A stretch of DNA of 64,000 nt from Pseudobdellovibrionaceae bacterium (GTDB taxonomy: Bacteria; Bdellovibrionota; Bdellovibrionia; Bdellovibrionales; Bdellovibrionaceae), in contig JBGATJ010000007.1 of assembly GCA_044229295.1 (NCBI GenBank), forward strand, positions 13,141 to 77,140, written 5' to 3'. Made by a program: the position numbers and the translations under genes. Below, piece after piece: positions 8,691 through 27,467 of the stretch. The first letter of the stretch is position 1. Each line of letters opens with the position of its first letter. The notes under the pieces were generated by a model. The model saw only the letters and a program-made list of their open reading frames with translations. It did no database searches and was not told the DNA's origin.

Positions 8691-8803
8691 CGGCAACAGC
8701 AACACTGGCAAACTGACAGCACCAGAAACAGCACCCGAAACAGCATCAGCACCAGCATCAGAGACAGCGCCCGAAACAGCATCAGAGACAGTGCAGAATC
8801 CAG
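8691..8803. repeat. Degenerate NNNCAG-periodic tract (left arm of intergenic element, copy 1)
   Basis: Read directly: gaaacagcaccc/gaaacagcatca/gagacagcgccc/gaaacagcatca units. Roughly the reverse complement of the (GCTGAT)n array 50 bp downstream. Confidence 0.6.
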
Positions 8804-8856
8804 TTTGCTGAAGTTTTTAAAAAAACTCCGAAACTAAACCTGATCTTGAAATTGAA

Positions 8857-8956
8857 GCTGACGCTGATGCTGACGCTGATGCTGATGCTGATGCTGATGC
8901 TGATGCTGGTGCTGATGCTGATGCTGATGCTGATGCTGATGCTGATGCTGATGCTG
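8857..8956. repeat. Hexanucleotide tandem array (GCTGAT)n, 16 units (13 GCTGAT, 2 GCTGAC, 1 GCTGGT)
   Basis: Counted directly in the sequence. Ends 6 nt from the stop codon of the minus-strand gene 8963..10009. Confidence 0.95.
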
Positions 8957-8962
8957 TCAGTG

Positions 8963-10009
8963 TCACCACCGCCAAAACAAATCAAAACTTGGATAGTATC
9001 CAAGTTCAGCGTTGACGTCTTTGGTGTAGCGGAGGCTATTGATATCGTTGGAGTCAAGTTCAAGGGCGAGATGCAGGTGATCCCAAATCATCATGTAGGC
9101 CAGGTAGCCACCTACGGTTTTATTTACGAAGTTGTAAGAAGGGCCAATAAGGACTCGATTCCAGTTCCAACGAATGAATTCGTAGCCGGTTTGGATCGAA
9201 CTGCTCGTGAAATAGTTCACCAGAAGATTTTTGTCATTGGAGTTGACGTTGAGAGCTGAGACGCTCAGACGGGTGTGTGAGACCATGGAGCTGTTGGAAA
9301 TAGAATCCCAATACAGCGATGCTTTGACACTGGTTTGCTTTTCGACCACATCATTATTTTTGACCTGCAGCTGAAGGGCATCAAATCCGATAGAGAGAAC
9401 CTGGGAGTCAAAGCTGTAGAATTTGTACTTTGCGCCGAAGTTATAGGTATTCGCCACCAGACCTGGGACCCAAAGATGAACGGAGGCCTGATTAGTGATC
9501 CCATATCTGTAAAAGCCGAAAATCGAAGCGAGGCTTTCGCCTTGAGCGAGGGTTTCCGCTGTTTCTCCAACAACCGTTCCCTGATACACGAGGGGTTTGA
9601 TACGCGCAGGAACTTCGGGTCGCTCTTTTACGAAAAGTTCCGTACCTCCCAGGTAGAGATCCGGAGGTGGTGCCGTGAGGTCAATTCCTAGGACTTCATC
9701 TCCAGAGAGAACAAAGCGCCCTCTCAAATGTTTTGTAATTTTAAAAGTGAGCTCGTAAGCTGTTGTTCCCAATTTTTTGATGGCAAACAGGTGAACGAAT
9801 GCCAGGATGACCTTTTCATCAGTGCGATCGACAACGGGGTACTCGGTACCTAGTGTCCATGGATGAGCCGACGCTGTTCGGCCCGTGAGTGTGTAGTGAT
9901 CGACAAAATCGACAATTTCAGCTTTTGCTAAAACAGGCTGAGAAAGCGTTTCATCGGCCTTAGAAAATTGAAAAAAAAGAAGTGCCATAAGCACCAAAAA
10001 ATACTGCAT
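8963..10009 (-). CDS. Exported hypothetical protein, possible outer-membrane beta-barrel
   Basis: Signal peptide [18 protein letters not shown]. The C-terminal half has alternating aromatic/polar strands and an aromatic terminus (FWRW). Confidence 0.5.
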
Positions 10010-24527: not shown

Positions 24528-25080
24528 ACTGCGCCGACTCGGGAGTCCGCCCTTGGCTTTCAAGACGCGAAATTTGCTTAGAATTTTTGAGGCGCTGACC
24601 TTCGAGGGTGTCAAGTCTGAGAGCAAGGACCTGCCGCGAGGGTTTTGGAGTGTTGGGATCAGAAAGGGCCCGGCGCACCCCAGAAATCTCAGCAGCTAAG
24701 CGTTCATTTTTTTTAGCCAATTCAAAGATCTCAAGACCCCGGTTATAAGTTTCAAGAAATGATTTTGAAGACCCATCGGGGCAGACTTGGCCGTAGGGAG
24801 TCCCTGCACGACCTAGCATTAATGCATTTTTAACATTACAGAAATCAAGCAGTCCCATCTCTCGTCCAAGGCGGTAGGCCTCGGGATCAGGCTCGCTGGC
24901 AGCACAGTTCAGGTTTGGGTTGACCAGCTTTTGTGGAGTAAGGCCAGAAATACCATCCCGACGGCCAATTTCAAACCAATCGACACTGTTGCAGGTGGGC
25001 TTTGTGACGGTTTTGAGTTCTCCAGACGAGCATCCAGTCAGCGCCATCGCCAGGGATAATTTCAGCCATTTTCTTCGCAT
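24526..25080 (-). CDS. DUF2799-like lipoprotein
   Basis: Lipobox LTGC. Repeated C..DW/Y..G..DG..G pattern (CNSVDWFEIGRRDGISG; YRLGREMGLLDFC). Confidence 0.6.
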   Translation of the reverse strand: MRRKWLKLSLAMALTGCSSGELKTVTKPTCNSVDWFEIGRRDGISGLTPQKLVNPNLNCAASEPDPEAYRLGREMGLLDFCNVKNALMLGRAGTPYGQVCPDGSSKSFLETYNRGLEIFELAKKNERLAAEISGVRRALSDPNTPKPSRQVLALRLDTLEGQRLKNSKQISRLESQGRTPESAQ

Positions 25081-25151
25081 GATTCTATTTAACTTTACTG
25101 CCTGGGCAAAGTCCAGTCTTCGAGAGGTAGATTTGTAAATTTGGCATTGCT

Positions 25152-25195
25152 CTCAGGTCCTAAATTTCGTAATAGACCAACAACAAAGAGGTCAC
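25152..25195 (+). promoter_or_regulatory. Candidate preQ1-I-like leader upstream of queF
   Basis: GGTC(25156-59)/GACC(25175-78) stem followed by the A-rich tail AACAACAAAGAGG containing the SD. An alternative GACC/GGTC(25190-93) pairing is possible. The stems are only 4 bp. Confidence 0.25.
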
Positions 25196-25576
25196 ATGGA
25201 ACCCAAAAAATACGGACAAATCGCCATCGAAGAAAATAGGCTTGAGCGCTTTGAAAATCGCACGCTCGTAAGGCGCTATAAAATTGAGTTCACGTGTCCA
25301 GAGTTTACCTGCCTGTGCCCTCGAAGCGGCTTCCCAGATTTTGCGACCATCCGAATTCGCTACGTTCCTGCCGAGTACTGTGTCGAGCTCAAATCCCTGA
25401 AGCTATACCTCAACGGCTTCCGCAACAAGAACGTCTTTCATGAGGACGTTACGAACAACATCCTCCAAGATCTGGTCGATTTGTTAAATCCCTGGGAGAT
25501 TGAAGTTGTAGGGGATTTTACAGTCAGGGGAAATATTCACACTGTGGTGACGGCGACGCACGCTCGGGAGGTATAG
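25196..25576 (+). CDS. queF: NADPH-dependent 7-cyano-7-deazaguanine reductase (type I QueF)
   Basis: CPEFTCLCPRSGFPDFATIRIRYVP and SLKLYLNGFRN motifs. 126 aa. Confidence 0.9.
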   Translation: MEPKKYGQIAIEENRLERFENRTLVRRYKIEFTCPEFTCLCPRSGFPDFATIRIRYVPAEYCVELKSLKLYLNGFRNKNVFHEDVTNNILQDLVDLLNPWEIEVVGDFTVRGNIHTVVTATHAREV

Positions 25577-25582
25577 TTACGG

Positions 25583-25670
25583 CACCAGCTTCAGCTTCAG
25601 TCCCAACTTCAGCCTCAGCCACAGCCTCAGCCTCAGTATTAGTATCAGTTCAGTAACAGACTCAGTACAG
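25583..25670. repeat. Degenerate NNNCAG-periodic tract (left arm of intergenic element, copy 2)
   Basis: caccag cttcag cttcag ... cctcag ccacag cctcag cctcag ... read directly. Approximate reverse complement of the array at 25810-25903. Confidence 0.6.
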
Positions 25671-25837
25671 TTTACGGTTGGTAACCTGGTTTAAAAAACT
25701 GTTGTCCTGATTCTCAGCGACTATCGGCTCAGAACAAAAAACGGAATCAGGTGGTTTAACGCCGCCTTTAGTATCCAGTTTTTAAGTTTCAGGGGAAGAT
25801 CAACCCAAACTGAGACTTGTGCTGAAGCTGCTACTGT

Positions 25838-25903
25838 GCTGATGCTGATGCTGGTGCTGGTGCTGATGCTGATGCTGATGCTGATGCTGATGCTGATGCT
25901 GAT
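25838..25903. repeat. Hexanucleotide tandem array (GCTGAT)n, 11 units (9 GCTGAT, 2 GCTGGT)
   Basis: Counted directly. Separated by 1 nt from the stop codon (25905-25907) of the minus-strand gene. Confidence 0.95.
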
Positions 25904-25904
25904 G

Positions 25905-27467
25905 CTACATCACCCTCACAGTCTTCATCACAGCCTCCCTCCCCGGAAGTTCAAAATCGTAACTCCAATTTTGGTGAAGAGTGCATCTGTGTTTTAGGGG
26001 AACCGCTTTCTCGCACGCCCTGAGAAACTCGGCTGGGGTCCATGACTCGTAGTTTGTTGAAAATAGAATTTCACCTTCGGGTGCCAGGATCTCGAGCAAG
26101 CTTCCGATAAGCCGACTGAGGTCTTTTTCGATGCGAAAGACCCCTTCGGGACTTCTTGAAAATGAGGGTGGGTCGCAAATGATGAGGTCAAAAAATCGAT
26201 TCTTCTTTTTTGCGCCACGTACGAAAAATAGAGCATCGGATTGGTAAAATTCGTAGGCAGCGGGATTAAGTCCGTTGAGTTTAAAATTTTCTTTGGACCA
26301 GGTTAAAAAAGTTTTGCTGAGGTCTACGGTCACAACCTCTTTGGCTCCACCTAAGGCCGCCGCAAGACTAAATCCGCCGGTGTAAGAAAATAAATTCAAA
26401 ACACGTTTGCCACTTGAAACTTTTTGGATCCAGTTTCGGTTCTCGCGCTGATCCAGAAAAAGACCTGGCGATACGCCGCTCTGCGTGCGGAATTGAAATT
26501 TTCGATCTTCCTCATTCGCTGTCCATACAAAGGGCTCGGGTTGGCTGGTGTAGAGAACCGTGGGCTTAGAGTCTTTTATTTTGCGTAGGTGATTGATCAC
26601 GAGATCGTTTTTAGAAAGCCGCTGACCGAGGTCTTTGAAAAAATCAATCTGCGTGAGCGTGGGCTCCTCGTCATTAAACCAATGGATCCAAAGCACCGGG
26701 CCTAGCAGGTCCGCTCTCCACCCAAGGAAATGATCATGCAAAAGTCGCAAGGTCTGCTCTTGGTTTTGTTGGATTTGATAGAGGTGCTGGCGCCTTCTGA
26801 TTTGCTCTTCAAGATAGCAGGTCTCTGGGTTTTTGAGTTTCTCAAGATCCTCAAAGTAGTTGGGGATGGAAAAAGTAAATTCGTAGCGCTCGCCATTCCA
26901 AAAAAATTCCAGCCGATGTGCGATAAGCGCAAGAACTGGAAAGTCGGCTCCCTCGTAAATCTCGTCCCCCAAAAGGGCTTGTCCTAAACTCTTTGCATGC
27001 AAACGAATTTGGTGAGTCTTGCCGGTCAGTGGACTTGCCTTCCATAGGCTGTGTCGCCCCTGCCTATCAGAACGCAGATATTCAAAGTCGGTGATGGCAT
27101 CGGGCGAGTCGCTGGGGCGGCTCTGAAAAGTTTTTCCGTTCTTTGAAATGGTGCTTTTGACTTGCAACCGAGTTTCCGAAGGCGGCGCTGAGCGTGTGAT
27201 AAAAAGATACTCTTTTTTGATCTTTCCATTTGCGAAAAGTTCGGTGAGTTGAGCCGCCGCGGTTTTGGAGCGCGCGAAGATCATGACTCCACTGGTTTCT
27301 TTATCGAGGCGATGCACAACATAAAGGTTCTCCCCACGCATGATTTCAAGAAACTCGACAAAACCTGGCGTTACCGGGTCGCTTTGGTGGGTGGTGAGCC
27401 CTTTAGGTTTAAAGGCCACCACGAAGTCGTCAAAGACTTGAATTTGGGGAGAAAGCTGCCGTGCCAT
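25905..27467 (-). CDS. Fusion protein: RluA-family pseudouridine synthase + class I SAM-dependent (RlmI-like) methyltransferase
   Basis: N-half has HRLDKETSGVMIFA (catalytic Asp motif). C-half has VLNLFSYTGGFSLAAALGGA and DLIICDPPSFSRS. Confidence 0.8.
   Translation of the reverse strand: MARQLSPQIQVFDDFVVAFKPKGLTTHQSDPVTPGFVEFLEIMRGENLYVVHRLDKETSGVMIFARSKTAAAQLTELFANGKIKKEYLFITRSAPPSETRLQVKSTISKNGKTFQSRPSDSPDAITDFEYLRSDRQGRHSLWKASPLTGKTHQIRLHAKSLGQALLGDEIYEGADFPVLALIAHRLEFFWNGERYEFTFSIPNYFEDLEKLKNPETCYLEEQIRRRQHLYQIQQNQEQTLRLLHDHFLGWRADLLGPVLWIHWFNDEEPTLTQIDFFKDLGQRLSKNDLVINHLRKIKDSKPTVLYTSQPEPFVWTANEEDRKFQFRTQSGVSPGLFLDQRENRNWIQKVSSGKRVLNLFSYTGGFSLAAALGGAKEVVTVDLSKTFLTWSKENFKLNGLNPAAYEFYQSDALFFVRGAKKKNRFFDLIICDPPSFSRSPEGVFRIEKDLSRLIGSLLEILAPEGEILFSTNYESWTPAEFLRACEKAVPLKHRCTLHQNWSYDFELPGREAVMKTVRVM

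What the first reader, a model, noticed from the sequence alone, without database searches (positions are those of the whole stretch)
25583..25903. Composite intergenic element, copy 2, between convergent queF and the RluA-methyltransferase fusion gene
Seen: the architecture matches copy 1. There is a CAG-periodic arm (caccag cttcag cttcag ... cctcag ccacag cctcag; 25583-25670). The spacer begins CAGTTTACGG..GGTTTAAAAAACTG, compared with CAGTTTGCTGAAGTTTTTAAAAAAACT in copy 1, and carries about 100 extra bp. The inner right arm is AAACTGAGACTTGTGCTGAAGCTGCT, compared with AAACTAAACCTGATCTTGAAATTGAAGCTGA in copy 1. Eleven hexamers follow (9 GCTGAT, 2 GCTGGT; 25838-25903). The array ends 1 nt from the TAG stop of the minus-strand gene and is again in the His-Gln frame of that gene. 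The shared spacer landmarks argue for homology between the two copies rather than independent microsatellite growth.
Basis: seen in the sequence. Interest (0 to 1): 0.6.

Follow-up and report, generated by a model that had tools for sequence, protein, structure and literature searches.

The report
Hexamer-armed hairpin repeat at gene ends
The stretch between queF and the RluA-methyltransferase gene is one of about 22 copies of a non-coding palindromic repeat found only in this genome, with arms made of six-base microsatellites that fold into a very long hairpin starting at the stop codons of the two genes; it is a new variant of the REP/MITE-type repeats known in bacteria, not a new kind of system.

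Summary
Window 25577-25904 holds a (CAGCNN)n arm, a unique 130-nt centre and a (NNGCTG)n arm with 11 GCTGAT/GCTGGT units. The whole gap folds into one hairpin (dG -152 kcal/mol, z -9.9).

It is not a two-copy curiosity. The 4.64-Mb genome holds 14 full copies and 8 solo arms. They share a conserved apical stem, CAGTACAGTTTCAG / CTGAAACTGTACTG, and an inner arm, ..CAGCATTAGCCTCAGCTT.

Copies sit 0-19 nt from the stop codon of a gene reading into them. In 13 of 22 arms CAG is in that gene's frame. Six TAG stops occupy a CAG slot of the array, and four genes end inside an array.

I found no target duplication, no linked transposase, no T-tract, no suppressor tRNA and no copy in 400 other genomes of the phylum. 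At one equivalent site, the agmatinase 3' end, two relatives (G001, G005) have ordinary T-tract terminators.

Best reading: a selfish REPIN/MITE-like hairpin element that is tolerated at gene ends, with arms that grow by slippage. Any effect on the RNA 3' end is inferred.

This scan has already noted similar repeat-armed hairpins behind stop codons in other phyla.

The parts
25196..25576 (+). queF-like gene reading into the left arm. Its stop TAG (25574-25576) sits in a CAG slot of the hexamer register: gta TAG | tta CGG | cac CAG | ctt CAG.
   Evidence: Pfam QueF 2.3e-34; gap 9, frame 0, phase 0 mod 6; the protein is 2 residues (E V) longer than its nearest orthologues.
25577..25662 (.). Left arm: degenerate (NNNCAG)n / (CAGCNN)n hexamer array of about 14 units, including two TAG variants.
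   Evidence: It pairs with the right arm in the MFE fold.
25663..25676 (.). Left half of the family's apical stem, degenerate: CAGTACAGTTTACG against the consensus CAGTACAGTTTCAG.
   Evidence: 2 mismatches, C91:38803. (nhmmer, profile positions 5-38, E 0.06).
25677..25806 (.). Loop or spacer of about 130 nt, unique in the genome. It folds into small sub-hairpins and matches no Rfam family.
   Evidence: BLAST finds only itself; Rfam finds nothing credible.
25807..25837 (.). Right half of the apical stem plus the inner arm, degenerate: AAACTGAGACTTGTGCTGAAGCTG(CTACTGT). Compare AAACTGAGACTGTACTGATGCTG in copy C65a.
   Evidence: z 8.2 to C65a, z 5.1 to C1. (nhmmer hit E 1e-5 across inner arm and core).
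25838..25904 (.). Right arm, outer part: 11 hexamers (GCTGAT x2, GCTGGT x2, GCTGAT x7). This homogeneous block has the look of recent slippage growth and abuts the stop codon.
25905..27467 (-). RluA pseudouridine synthase - SAM methyltransferase fusion gene reading into the right arm. Its stop TAG (25905-25907) sits in a CAG slot: TAG CAT CAG CAT CAG.
   Evidence: gap 0, frame 0, phase 0 mod 6; the protein ends 2 residues before most orthologues.
8716..8956 (.). Copy 1 of the same family in this window. Left arm 8716-8803, short A/T-centred loop, right arm (GCTGAY)17 at 8853-8956. It abuts the stop (TGA CAC TGA CAG) of the minus-strand gene 8963-10009 and lies 49 nt upstream of the start of the class-V aminotransferase gene.
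   Evidence: (dG -123.8, z -10.4). (z 10.3 to copy C68)..

Best explanation
Copy 2 belongs to a dispersed family of non-coding palindromic repeats found only in this genome, with about 14 full copies and 8 solo arms.

Each full copy has the same layout: outer arm (CAGCNN)n, conserved inner arm ..CAGCATTAGCCTCAGCTT, apical stem CAGTACAGTTTCAG, a loop of 4 to about 350 nt, then the mirror image CTGAAACTGTACTG-AAGCTGAGGCTG-(NNGCTG)n.

Shown here:
- The copies share ancestry.
- Every full copy folds into one long hairpin. Because CAGC pairs with GCTG in any 6-nt register, the hairpin survives changes in array length.
- Arm length runs from 2 to about 36 units, with homogeneous outer blocks. That is the pattern slipped-strand growth leaves.
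- Copies lie against the stop codon of a gene that reads into them. In the CAG frame the array itself often supplies the stop (CAG to TAG) and the last one to nine codons.

Inferred:
- The family spread as a small non-autonomous hairpin element, of REPIN or MITE type, by a mechanism I could not identify.
- Copies survive only where they do least harm. That is the first few nucleotides after, or the last codons of, a gene, in the one frame that stops translation at once.
- When transcribed, the hairpin forms a 3'-UTR structure shared by the convergent queF and RluA-methyltransferase mRNAs. It may block 3' exonucleases, be cut by RNase III or attenuate read-through. That would be a side effect, not the reason the element exists.
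For: Family and homology:
- Genome-wide scans find paired CAG/CTG hexamer arrays at 13 loci plus solo arms.
- The 14-nt core has many exact copies.
- The 20-mer ACTGTACTGAWGCTGNGGCT has 10 hits in this genome.
- An arm-plus-core profile finds about 20 arms at E < 1e-8 and copy 2 at E = 1e-5.

Hairpin:
- Copy 2 has z -9.9 and copy 1 z -10.4.
- All 14 full copies have z between -5 and -15, with 19-122 pairs spanning the centre.

Position:
- In the nine full copies between same-strand genes, the element is -9 to 19 nt from the upstream stop and 49-170 nt from the next start.
- In 13 of 22 arms CAG is in frame with the inward-reading gene (binomial P 0.012).
- Six of the seven TAG stops in that frame sit in the CAG slot.
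- Four genes end inside arrays, for example ..LQNQQQQQRQH*.
- TAG accounts for 7 of 13 of these stops against 26% genome-wide (P 0.03).

Native gene ends:
- The RluA-methyltransferase protein is 2 residues shorter than its orthologues, QueF is 2 residues longer, and agmatinase is within the normal spread.

Selfish rather than purpose-built:
- Solo arms exist.
- One giant copy (C91d) and one solo arm (C14) lie between divergent genes.
- The loop of one copy holds an unrelated 170-bp MITE.
- Copies cluster: 4 on contig C91 against 0.59 expected, 3 on C25 against 0.28.
- There is no T-tract.
Against: - No mobilising enzyme was found. The only multi-copy HUH (Y1_Tnp) gene family has its own unrelated hairpin and is not next to any copy.
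- There are no target-site duplications.
- No empty site is available for comparison. The nearest genomes are other genera, at about 40-78% protein identity.
- The two arms of one copy are not more alike than arms of different copies (permutation p 0.07). So neither selection for pairing nor recent palindromic copying is shown.
- The closeness to stop codons could reflect a real function at the 3' end and not only tolerance.
- I have no transcription data.
Confidence: 0.6

Rival explanations
1. The hairpins are selected gene-end signals. They would act as two-way transcription terminators or attenuators, or as mRNA 3'-end stabilisers, taking the place of ordinary intrinsic terminators. With the stop codon in the base of the stem, a terminating ribosome would control folding.
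For: - 20 of 22 loci lie 3' of at least one gene, and nearly all abut its stop.
- The stems are very stable.
- At the equivalent agmatinase 3' end, relatives G001 and G005 carry classic GC-stem plus T-tract terminators, where this genome has a family arm.
- An earlier scan note on another phylum reports the same replacement (e1-2890091; not checked by me on that DNA).
Against: - No T-tract follows the stems.
- The largest copy (C91d) and solo arm C14 sit between divergent genes, where a terminator has no use.
- Eight solo arms cannot form the hairpin, yet they also abut stops.
- Stem length ranges from 19 to more than 100 pairs.
- I found no arm co-variation.
Confidence: 0.22
2. The arrays are translated. 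They would be read either as His-Gln tails through stop-codon read-through or TAG recoding, or as Ala-Ser/Pro or Ala-Asp/Gly low-complexity linkers of unrecognised genes.
For: - The CAG frame is preferred, and four genes do end 2-10 codons inside an array.
- The variable dinucleotide falls on wobble positions of the GCN-YCA frame and of the GCT-GRN frame.
- In relatives, (CCAGCA)n arrays encode Pro-Ala linkers, and a MurI-like gene in G024 reads in frame into (TCAGCA)10.
Against: - Stops precede or interrupt the arrays in every copy, and TAG recurs inside the CAG frame.
- Aragorn finds no suppressor tRNA among 34 tRNAs.
- Orthologues of QueF, RluA-methyltransferase and agmatinase end within about 2 residues of the same point.
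- In the outward GCT-GRN frame a TGA lies just upstream and there is no start codon.
- The wobble pattern is shared by two frames on opposite strands. It follows from the CAGC conservation alone, so it cannot identify a coding frame.
Confidence: 0.05
3. The arrays act at the DNA level. They could be arrays of protein-binding or recombination sites (GCTGGTG is 7 of 8 bases of the E. coli Chi site) or cruciform-forming sites that affect replication or recombination.
For: - Head-to-head arrays of an oriented 4-base word, CAGC/GCTG.
- Copies cluster on a few contigs.
Against: - Only some units read GGTG, and most read GATG, GAGG or GAAG.
- No partner protein is known.
- The 6-nt period does not match the DNA helical repeat.
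- I did not test whether GCTGGTGG is skewed in this genome.
Confidence: 0.06
4. The arrays are independent chance microsatellites, or an assembly artefact.
For: Homogeneous (GCTGAT)n blocks can arise by slippage anywhere.
Against: - The non-repeat core and the CATTAGC inner-arm signature are shared across about 20 loci.
- Every copy has unique coding flanks on both sides within its contig.
Confidence: 0.01

Closest known systems
REP / BIME elements and REPIN doublets mobilised by RAYT transposases (Bertels and Rainey 2011, PMC3116915; PMC3337134)
   Same: Both are extragenic, specific to one lineage and dispersed. The unit is an inverted doublet that folds into a hairpin, and decayed singlets exist beside the doublets. 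Both lie mostly at gene 3' ends and are co-transcribed. From my own knowledge: REPs within about 15 nt of a stop codon can stall ribosomes (Liang, Rudd and Deutscher 2015).
   Different: The arms here are variable-length hexamer microsatellites, not a fixed REP of about 25 nt. The conserved part is the apical stem, not the ends. There is no GTAG-type head. There are only about 22 loci, not hundreds. No RAYT gene is flanked by them.
Bacterial MITE-like palindromic repeats (Correia/NEMIS of Neisseria, ERIC/IRU of enterobacteria, RUP, Rickettsia RPE). Recalled from my own knowledge.
   Same: All are non-autonomous palindromes of 50-150 bp, transcribed with neighbouring genes, and some overlap or extend reading frames.
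   Different: There is no target-site duplication, no defined terminal inverted repeat with a fixed end, no related autonomous element and no sequence similarity. The arms are tandem arrays.
Long simple sequence repeats with 5-11-nt units (Mrazek et al. 2007, as summarised in PMC4679880) and the intergenic TAACTGA repeats of Beggiatoaceae and cyanobacteria (PMC4679880)
   Same: Both are short-unit tandem arrays that are much longer than expected, mostly intergenic and sporadic across lineages. Arrays that carry stop codons can only overlap the ends of reading frames, which is the argument made in PMC4679880 and applied here to the CAG/TAG frame.
   Different: Those are direct arrays without a partner. 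Here two arrays face each other around a conserved non-repeat stem and make one hairpin element.
Repeat-armed hairpins behind stop codons noted earlier in this scan (Polyangia e1-933419, Chloroflexota e1-2890091, Acidobacteriota e1-2139999, Chlorobaculum e1-5258264)
   Same: The architecture is the same: microsatellite arms, a hairpin, and a position a few bases after stop codons, with small families confined to one genome.
   Different: The unit sequences are unrelated and so are the phyla. Those are AI notes on other DNA that I did not re-check. The in-frame CAG/TAG relation and the conserved apical stem are specific to this family.
Rho-independent (intrinsic) terminators
   Same: Both are a stable stem-loop directly after a gene. 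This element occupies the place where relatives have such terminators.
   Different: No T-tract follows the stem. The stems are 5-20 times longer than a terminator stem, and some copies lie in divergent promoter gaps.

Membership tests
REP/REPIN-RAYT | Inverted doublet of a repeat that forms a hairpin, with singlets as decay products | tested here: met
   There are 14 doublets that fold as single hairpins and 8 solo arms.
REP/REPIN-RAYT | A fixed short (about 20-40 nt) imperfect palindromic REP with a conserved head tetranucleotide such as GTAG | tested here: not met
   The arms are (CAGCNN)n arrays of 2 to about 36 units. The outer ends are blurred, and there is no GTAG head.
REP/REPIN-RAYT | A cognate RAYT (Y1 HUH transposase) gene flanked by the repeats | tested here: not met
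   There are seven weak PF01797 hits (24-29 bits). Six of them belong to one multi-copy element of about 750 bp that has its own unrelated hairpin. No family arm lies on those contig regions.
MITE (DDE-transposon derived) | Target-site duplication flanking the element | tested here: not met
   The longest direct repeat between the two flanks is 3-4 nt in 13 of 14 copies, equal to the null mean of 3.9. The one 8-nt match (C67) comes from an imprecise boundary inside the arm.
MITE (DDE-transposon derived) | Terminal inverted repeats shared with an autonomous transposon in the genome | tested here: inconclusive
   The whole element is an inverted repeat. No longer element carrying these ends turned up in the genome-wide nhmmer and array scans, but I did not search transposase genes one by one.
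Intrinsic terminator | GC-rich stem followed directly by a run of T | tested here: not met
   The terminator scan of 24800-26600 finds none in the element. The flanks of the other copies show no consistent T run.
Long simple sequence repeats (Mrazek class, 5-11-nt units) | Tandem array of a 5-11-nt unit that is longer than chance allows | tested here: met
   TRF gives period 6 with 14.7 copies (score 132) in copy 2 and 17.3 copies (score 180) in copy 1.
Integron attC site | Imperfect palindrome with R''/R' core sites (RYYYAAC ... GTTRRRY) at the 3' end of promoterless cassettes arrayed beside intI | tested here: not met
   The element ends do not carry these core sites. The copies are scattered among housekeeping genes on 13 contigs, not in cassette arrays. 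I did not search for intI.
Known RNA families (Rfam 15) | A match at or above a family's gathering score | tested here: not met
   The only hit is mir-598 at 20.3 bits against a gathering score of 69, E 0.37.

The most novel reading that the evidence does not exclude
Microsatellite-armed hairpins that start at the stop codon may be a functional class of gene-end module that has evolved repeatedly. This scan has now noted them in at least five phyla. On this reading they replace intrinsic terminators. The stop codon sits in the stem, here as a TAG in a CAG slot, so the terminating ribosome decides whether the hairpin forms. That would couple translation to 3'-end formation or mRNA decay, and array-length changes would tune expression of the flanking genes.
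Probability: 0.12. Interest if true: 0.75.

Novelty: new variant of a known kind. Interest (0 to 1): 0.45.

Why it matters
Small palindromic repeats (REP, REPIN, MITE) are among the least understood parts of bacterial genomes. This family adds an unusual design. The conserved part is the tip of the hairpin. The arms are hexamer microsatellites that pair in any register, so the structure survives rapid length change.

It also shows directly how such an element can be tolerated inside the last codons of a gene: one of its frames turns into a stop codon with a single C-to-T change.

If the hairpins prove to set mRNA 3' ends, they would be a terminator substitute that evolves quickly, and a ready source of expression variation. 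Together with similar notes from other phyla in this scan, the family suggests a general class that has been under-described. As it stands, this is a well-documented local family with unknown mobility and unproven function.

Tried and rejected
1. TAG-to-Gln recoding or read-through. Aragorn finds 34 ordinary tRNAs, one tRNA-Gln(UUG) and no suppressor. TAA and TGA stops also precede arrays.
2. Coding arms. See the rival explanation. The apparent wobble pattern is shared by two frames on opposite strands, so it says nothing.
3. Relatives.
   - The core 20-mer has no hit in 40 relatives.
   - The apical-stem pattern has no hit in 400 genomes of the phylum.
   - GTDB genome contigs give 3 chance hits.
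   - Metagenome contigs give 10 chance hits with no arrays around them.
   - Records of the window's own genome may be left out of those collections.
4. (CAGCNN)6 in 120 genomes of the family. Five genomes match. Where the match can be read, it is mostly a Pro-Ala or similar coding linker. One case, G024, has (GCTGAT)10 at the end of a MurI-like gene beside a 100-N gap.
5. Arm co-variation within a copy against between copies: not significant.
6. Target-site duplications: none.
7. Link to Y1_Tnp genes: none.
8. Rfam: nothing.
9. Canonical terminator or promoter inside the element: none.
10. Other copies of the copy-2 loop: none. The long loop of copy C25a is an unrelated inserted MITE.
12. A literature search on Bdellovibrio palindromic intergenic repeats found nothing relevant.

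Full report
**Observation**

- A CAG-periodic tract starts right after the queF stop.
- A centre of about 130 nt follows.
- Then comes AAACTGAGACTTGTGCTGAAGCTG.
- Then come eleven hexamers (GCTGAT x2, GCTGGT x2, GCTGAT x7; 25838-25903), which run up to the TAG of the minus-strand gene.

Tandem Repeats Finder reports both arms here and both arms of copy 1 at 8716-8956.

As RNA the whole gap folds into a single hairpin whose base includes both stop codons: dG -152.3 kcal/mol, against -99.1 +/- 5.4 for shuffles, z -9.9. Copy 1 behaves the same way: -123.8 kcal/mol, z -10.4.

**A family, not a pair**

I laid out the window's own genome (4.64 Mb, 119 contigs, 46% G+C) and scanned it for period-6 CAG and CTG chains.
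- This found 13 loci where a (CAGCNN)n tract is followed, 30 to 350 nt later, by a (NNGCTG)n tract.
- It also found unpaired arms.

The arms are more than microsatellites. Their inner ends share a non-repeat core, CAGTACAGTTTCAG on the left and its complement CTGAAACTGTACTG on the right. Flanking the core are ..CAGCATTAGCCTCAGCTT / AAGCTGAGGCTAATGCTG...

A profile of arm plus core finds about 20 arms at E < 1e-8. It hits the inner right arm and core of copy 2 at E = 1e-5, and the left core of copy 2 at E = 0.06.

Outside the arrays, copy 1 and copy 2 resemble each other only weakly (z 3.9). Each does resemble other members clearly: copy 1 to C68 at z 10.3, copy 2 to C65a at z 8.2.

My count is 14 full copies and 8 solo arms. 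The smallest full copy (C67) has about two hexamers per arm. The largest (C91d) has about 15 and 36.

All 14 full copies fold as one hairpin, with z from -5 to -15. CAGC pairs with GCTG in every 6-nt register, so a change in the number of units on one side does not destroy the stem.

The long loops are secondary. The 325-nt loop of C25a contains an unrelated 170-bp MITE that has at least eight other copies. The loop of copy 2 is unique.

**Position and reading frame**

- In the nine full copies that lie between same-strand genes, the element is -9 to 19 nt from the upstream stop and 49 to 170 nt from the next start.
- Three full copies, copy 2 among them, fill convergent gaps.
- One full copy is at a contig end.
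- One full copy (C91d) and one solo arm (C14) lie between divergent genes.

For 22 arms with a gene reading into them, CAG is in that gene's frame in 13 (binomial P 0.012). Within that group:
- seven stops are TAG, against 26% genome-wide (P 0.03);
- six of those seven fall exactly in a CAG slot of the hexamer register, including both stops of copy 2 (gta TAG tta CGG cac CAG ...; TAG CAT CAG ...);
- four genes end inside an array..LQNQQQQQRQH*..MEQH*..MAKHQ*..RFLQ*.

In the other two frames the stop always lies 4-31 nt outside the array.

Several outer ends read TAACAGCAYCAG on both arms, so an in-frame TAA may belong to the ancestral terminus.

**Relatives**

- The RluA-methyltransferase protein ends two residues before most orthologues.
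- QueF ends two residues after its nearest orthologues.
- Agmatinase, next to solo arm C65b, ends within the normal spread.

So the elements sit at the native C-termini and have replaced, or slightly shifted, the stop.

At the agmatinase 3' end, relatives G001 and G005 have ordinary GC-stem plus T-tract terminators. In one relative the rluA-methyltransferase gene and a queF-like gene are convergent with only 4 nt between their stops.

The nearest genomes belong to other genera, at 40-78% protein identity, so I had no nucleotide-level empty site to compare.

**Distribution**

- The core 20-mer: 10 hits in this genome, none in 40 relatives.
- The apical-stem pattern: no hit in 400 other genomes of the phylum.
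- GTDB and metagenome contigs: only chance hits without arrays.
- (CAGCNN)6 tracts in family relatives: mostly coding linkers. The one exception is a (GCTGAT)10 tract at the end of a MurI-like gene beside an assembly gap.
- Within this genome the copies cluster: 4 on C91 against 0.59 expected, and 3 on C25 against 0.28.

Earlier notes place the genome among Bdellovibrio-like bacteria. I did not verify this myself.

**Mechanism**

Shown here: common ancestry of the copies; the hairpin; the register-independent pairing; the unequal, partly homogeneous arrays expected from slippage; and the stop-codon and frame relation.

Inferred: the family spread as a small hairpin element. Copies persisted only where they do little harm. 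Between same-strand genes, the promoter side of the gap is not free, which leaves the first bases after a stop. An insertion into the last codons survives mainly in the CAG frame, where the terminus (TAA CAG) or a single C-to-T change (CAG to TAG) ends translation at once. PMC4679880 makes the same argument for stop-bearing TAACTGA repeats.

Not found:
- a mobilising enzyme: the only multi-copy HUH gene family has a different hairpin and is not linked;
- target-site duplications;
- arm co-variation;
- a T-tract;
- a suppressor tRNA;
- an Rfam family.

A role for the RNA hairpin as a two-way attenuator, a 3'-end protector or an RNase III target is plausible from its position but was not tested.

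**Comparison with known elements, and verdict**

The element works most like a REPIN or BIME, or a MITE-type palindrome. It fails the defining tests of both families: no fixed REP with a head motif, no flanking RAYT gene and no target duplication. Its arrays do qualify as long simple sequence repeats of the 5-11-nt class.

This scan has already noted the same architecture (microsatellite arms, a hairpin, a position just behind stop codons) in Polyangia, Chloroflexota, Acidobacteriota and Chlorobaculum. I did not re-check those notes.

I therefore rate this a new variant of a known kind. It is well supported as a real family confined to this genome and is moderately interesting. The open questions are how it moves and whether the hairpin does anything for the flanking genes.

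Noticed in passing
Its 67-nt centre recurs at 95% identity at G000:C91:122974-123040, and partly on C78. It is therefore another dispersed repeat type sitting on a stop codon in this genome.
   Followed up: partly
G000:C25:16800-16975 (outside the window; inside the loop of family copy C25a): An element of about 170 bp with 24-bp terminal inverted repeats (CAAACTGGAACCCAATAATGTTGG...) is inserted in the hairpin loop. At least eight further copies lie on C102, C48, C114, C16, C119 and C26, at 80-96% identity. It is an unrelated MITE.
   Followed up: partly
G000:C37:182695-182991 and six other contigs, including C91:93642-94349 (outside the window): A multi-copy element of about 750 bp encodes a protein of about 210 aa with a weak Y1_Tnp (IS200/RAYT-like) match and an HIH motif. 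A strong 60-nt hairpin (GGGAGAGTTGTGGGAAATGGGGGCAACAA...) precedes the gene. At least seven copies exist at 85-92% identity.
   Followed up: partly
G000:C91:107773-108243 (outside the window): This is the largest family copy, with arms of about 15 and 36 hexamers (GCTGGT/GCTGAT/GCCGAT), dG -263 kcal/mol. It lies between divergent genes, about 100 nt from each start, so it is not at a gene's 3' end.
   Followed up: partly
L055 = G024:C39:3000-5691, positions 1158-1217: In a genome of another genus in the same family, a MurI-like gene reads in frame, with no stop, into (TCAGCA)10 = (Ser-Ala)10. The tract ends at a 100-N gap. This may be a related gene-end array or a coding tail.
   Followed up: partly
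L053, L054, L056, L057, L013, L014 (relatives G024, G021, G114, G068, G003): In relatives, (CCAGCA)n / (CCAGCT)n hexamer arrays encode Pro-Ala-type linkers of apparently secreted or lipoprotein-like proteins. They often sit at contig ends, which suggests assemblies break at them.
   Followed up: no
L026 = G001:C1, around 836789-836923: In relative G001 the rluA-methyltransferase gene and a queF-like gene are convergent with only 4 nt (CGAA) between their stop codons. The gene pair is conserved, but the gap can be almost nil.
   Followed up: no
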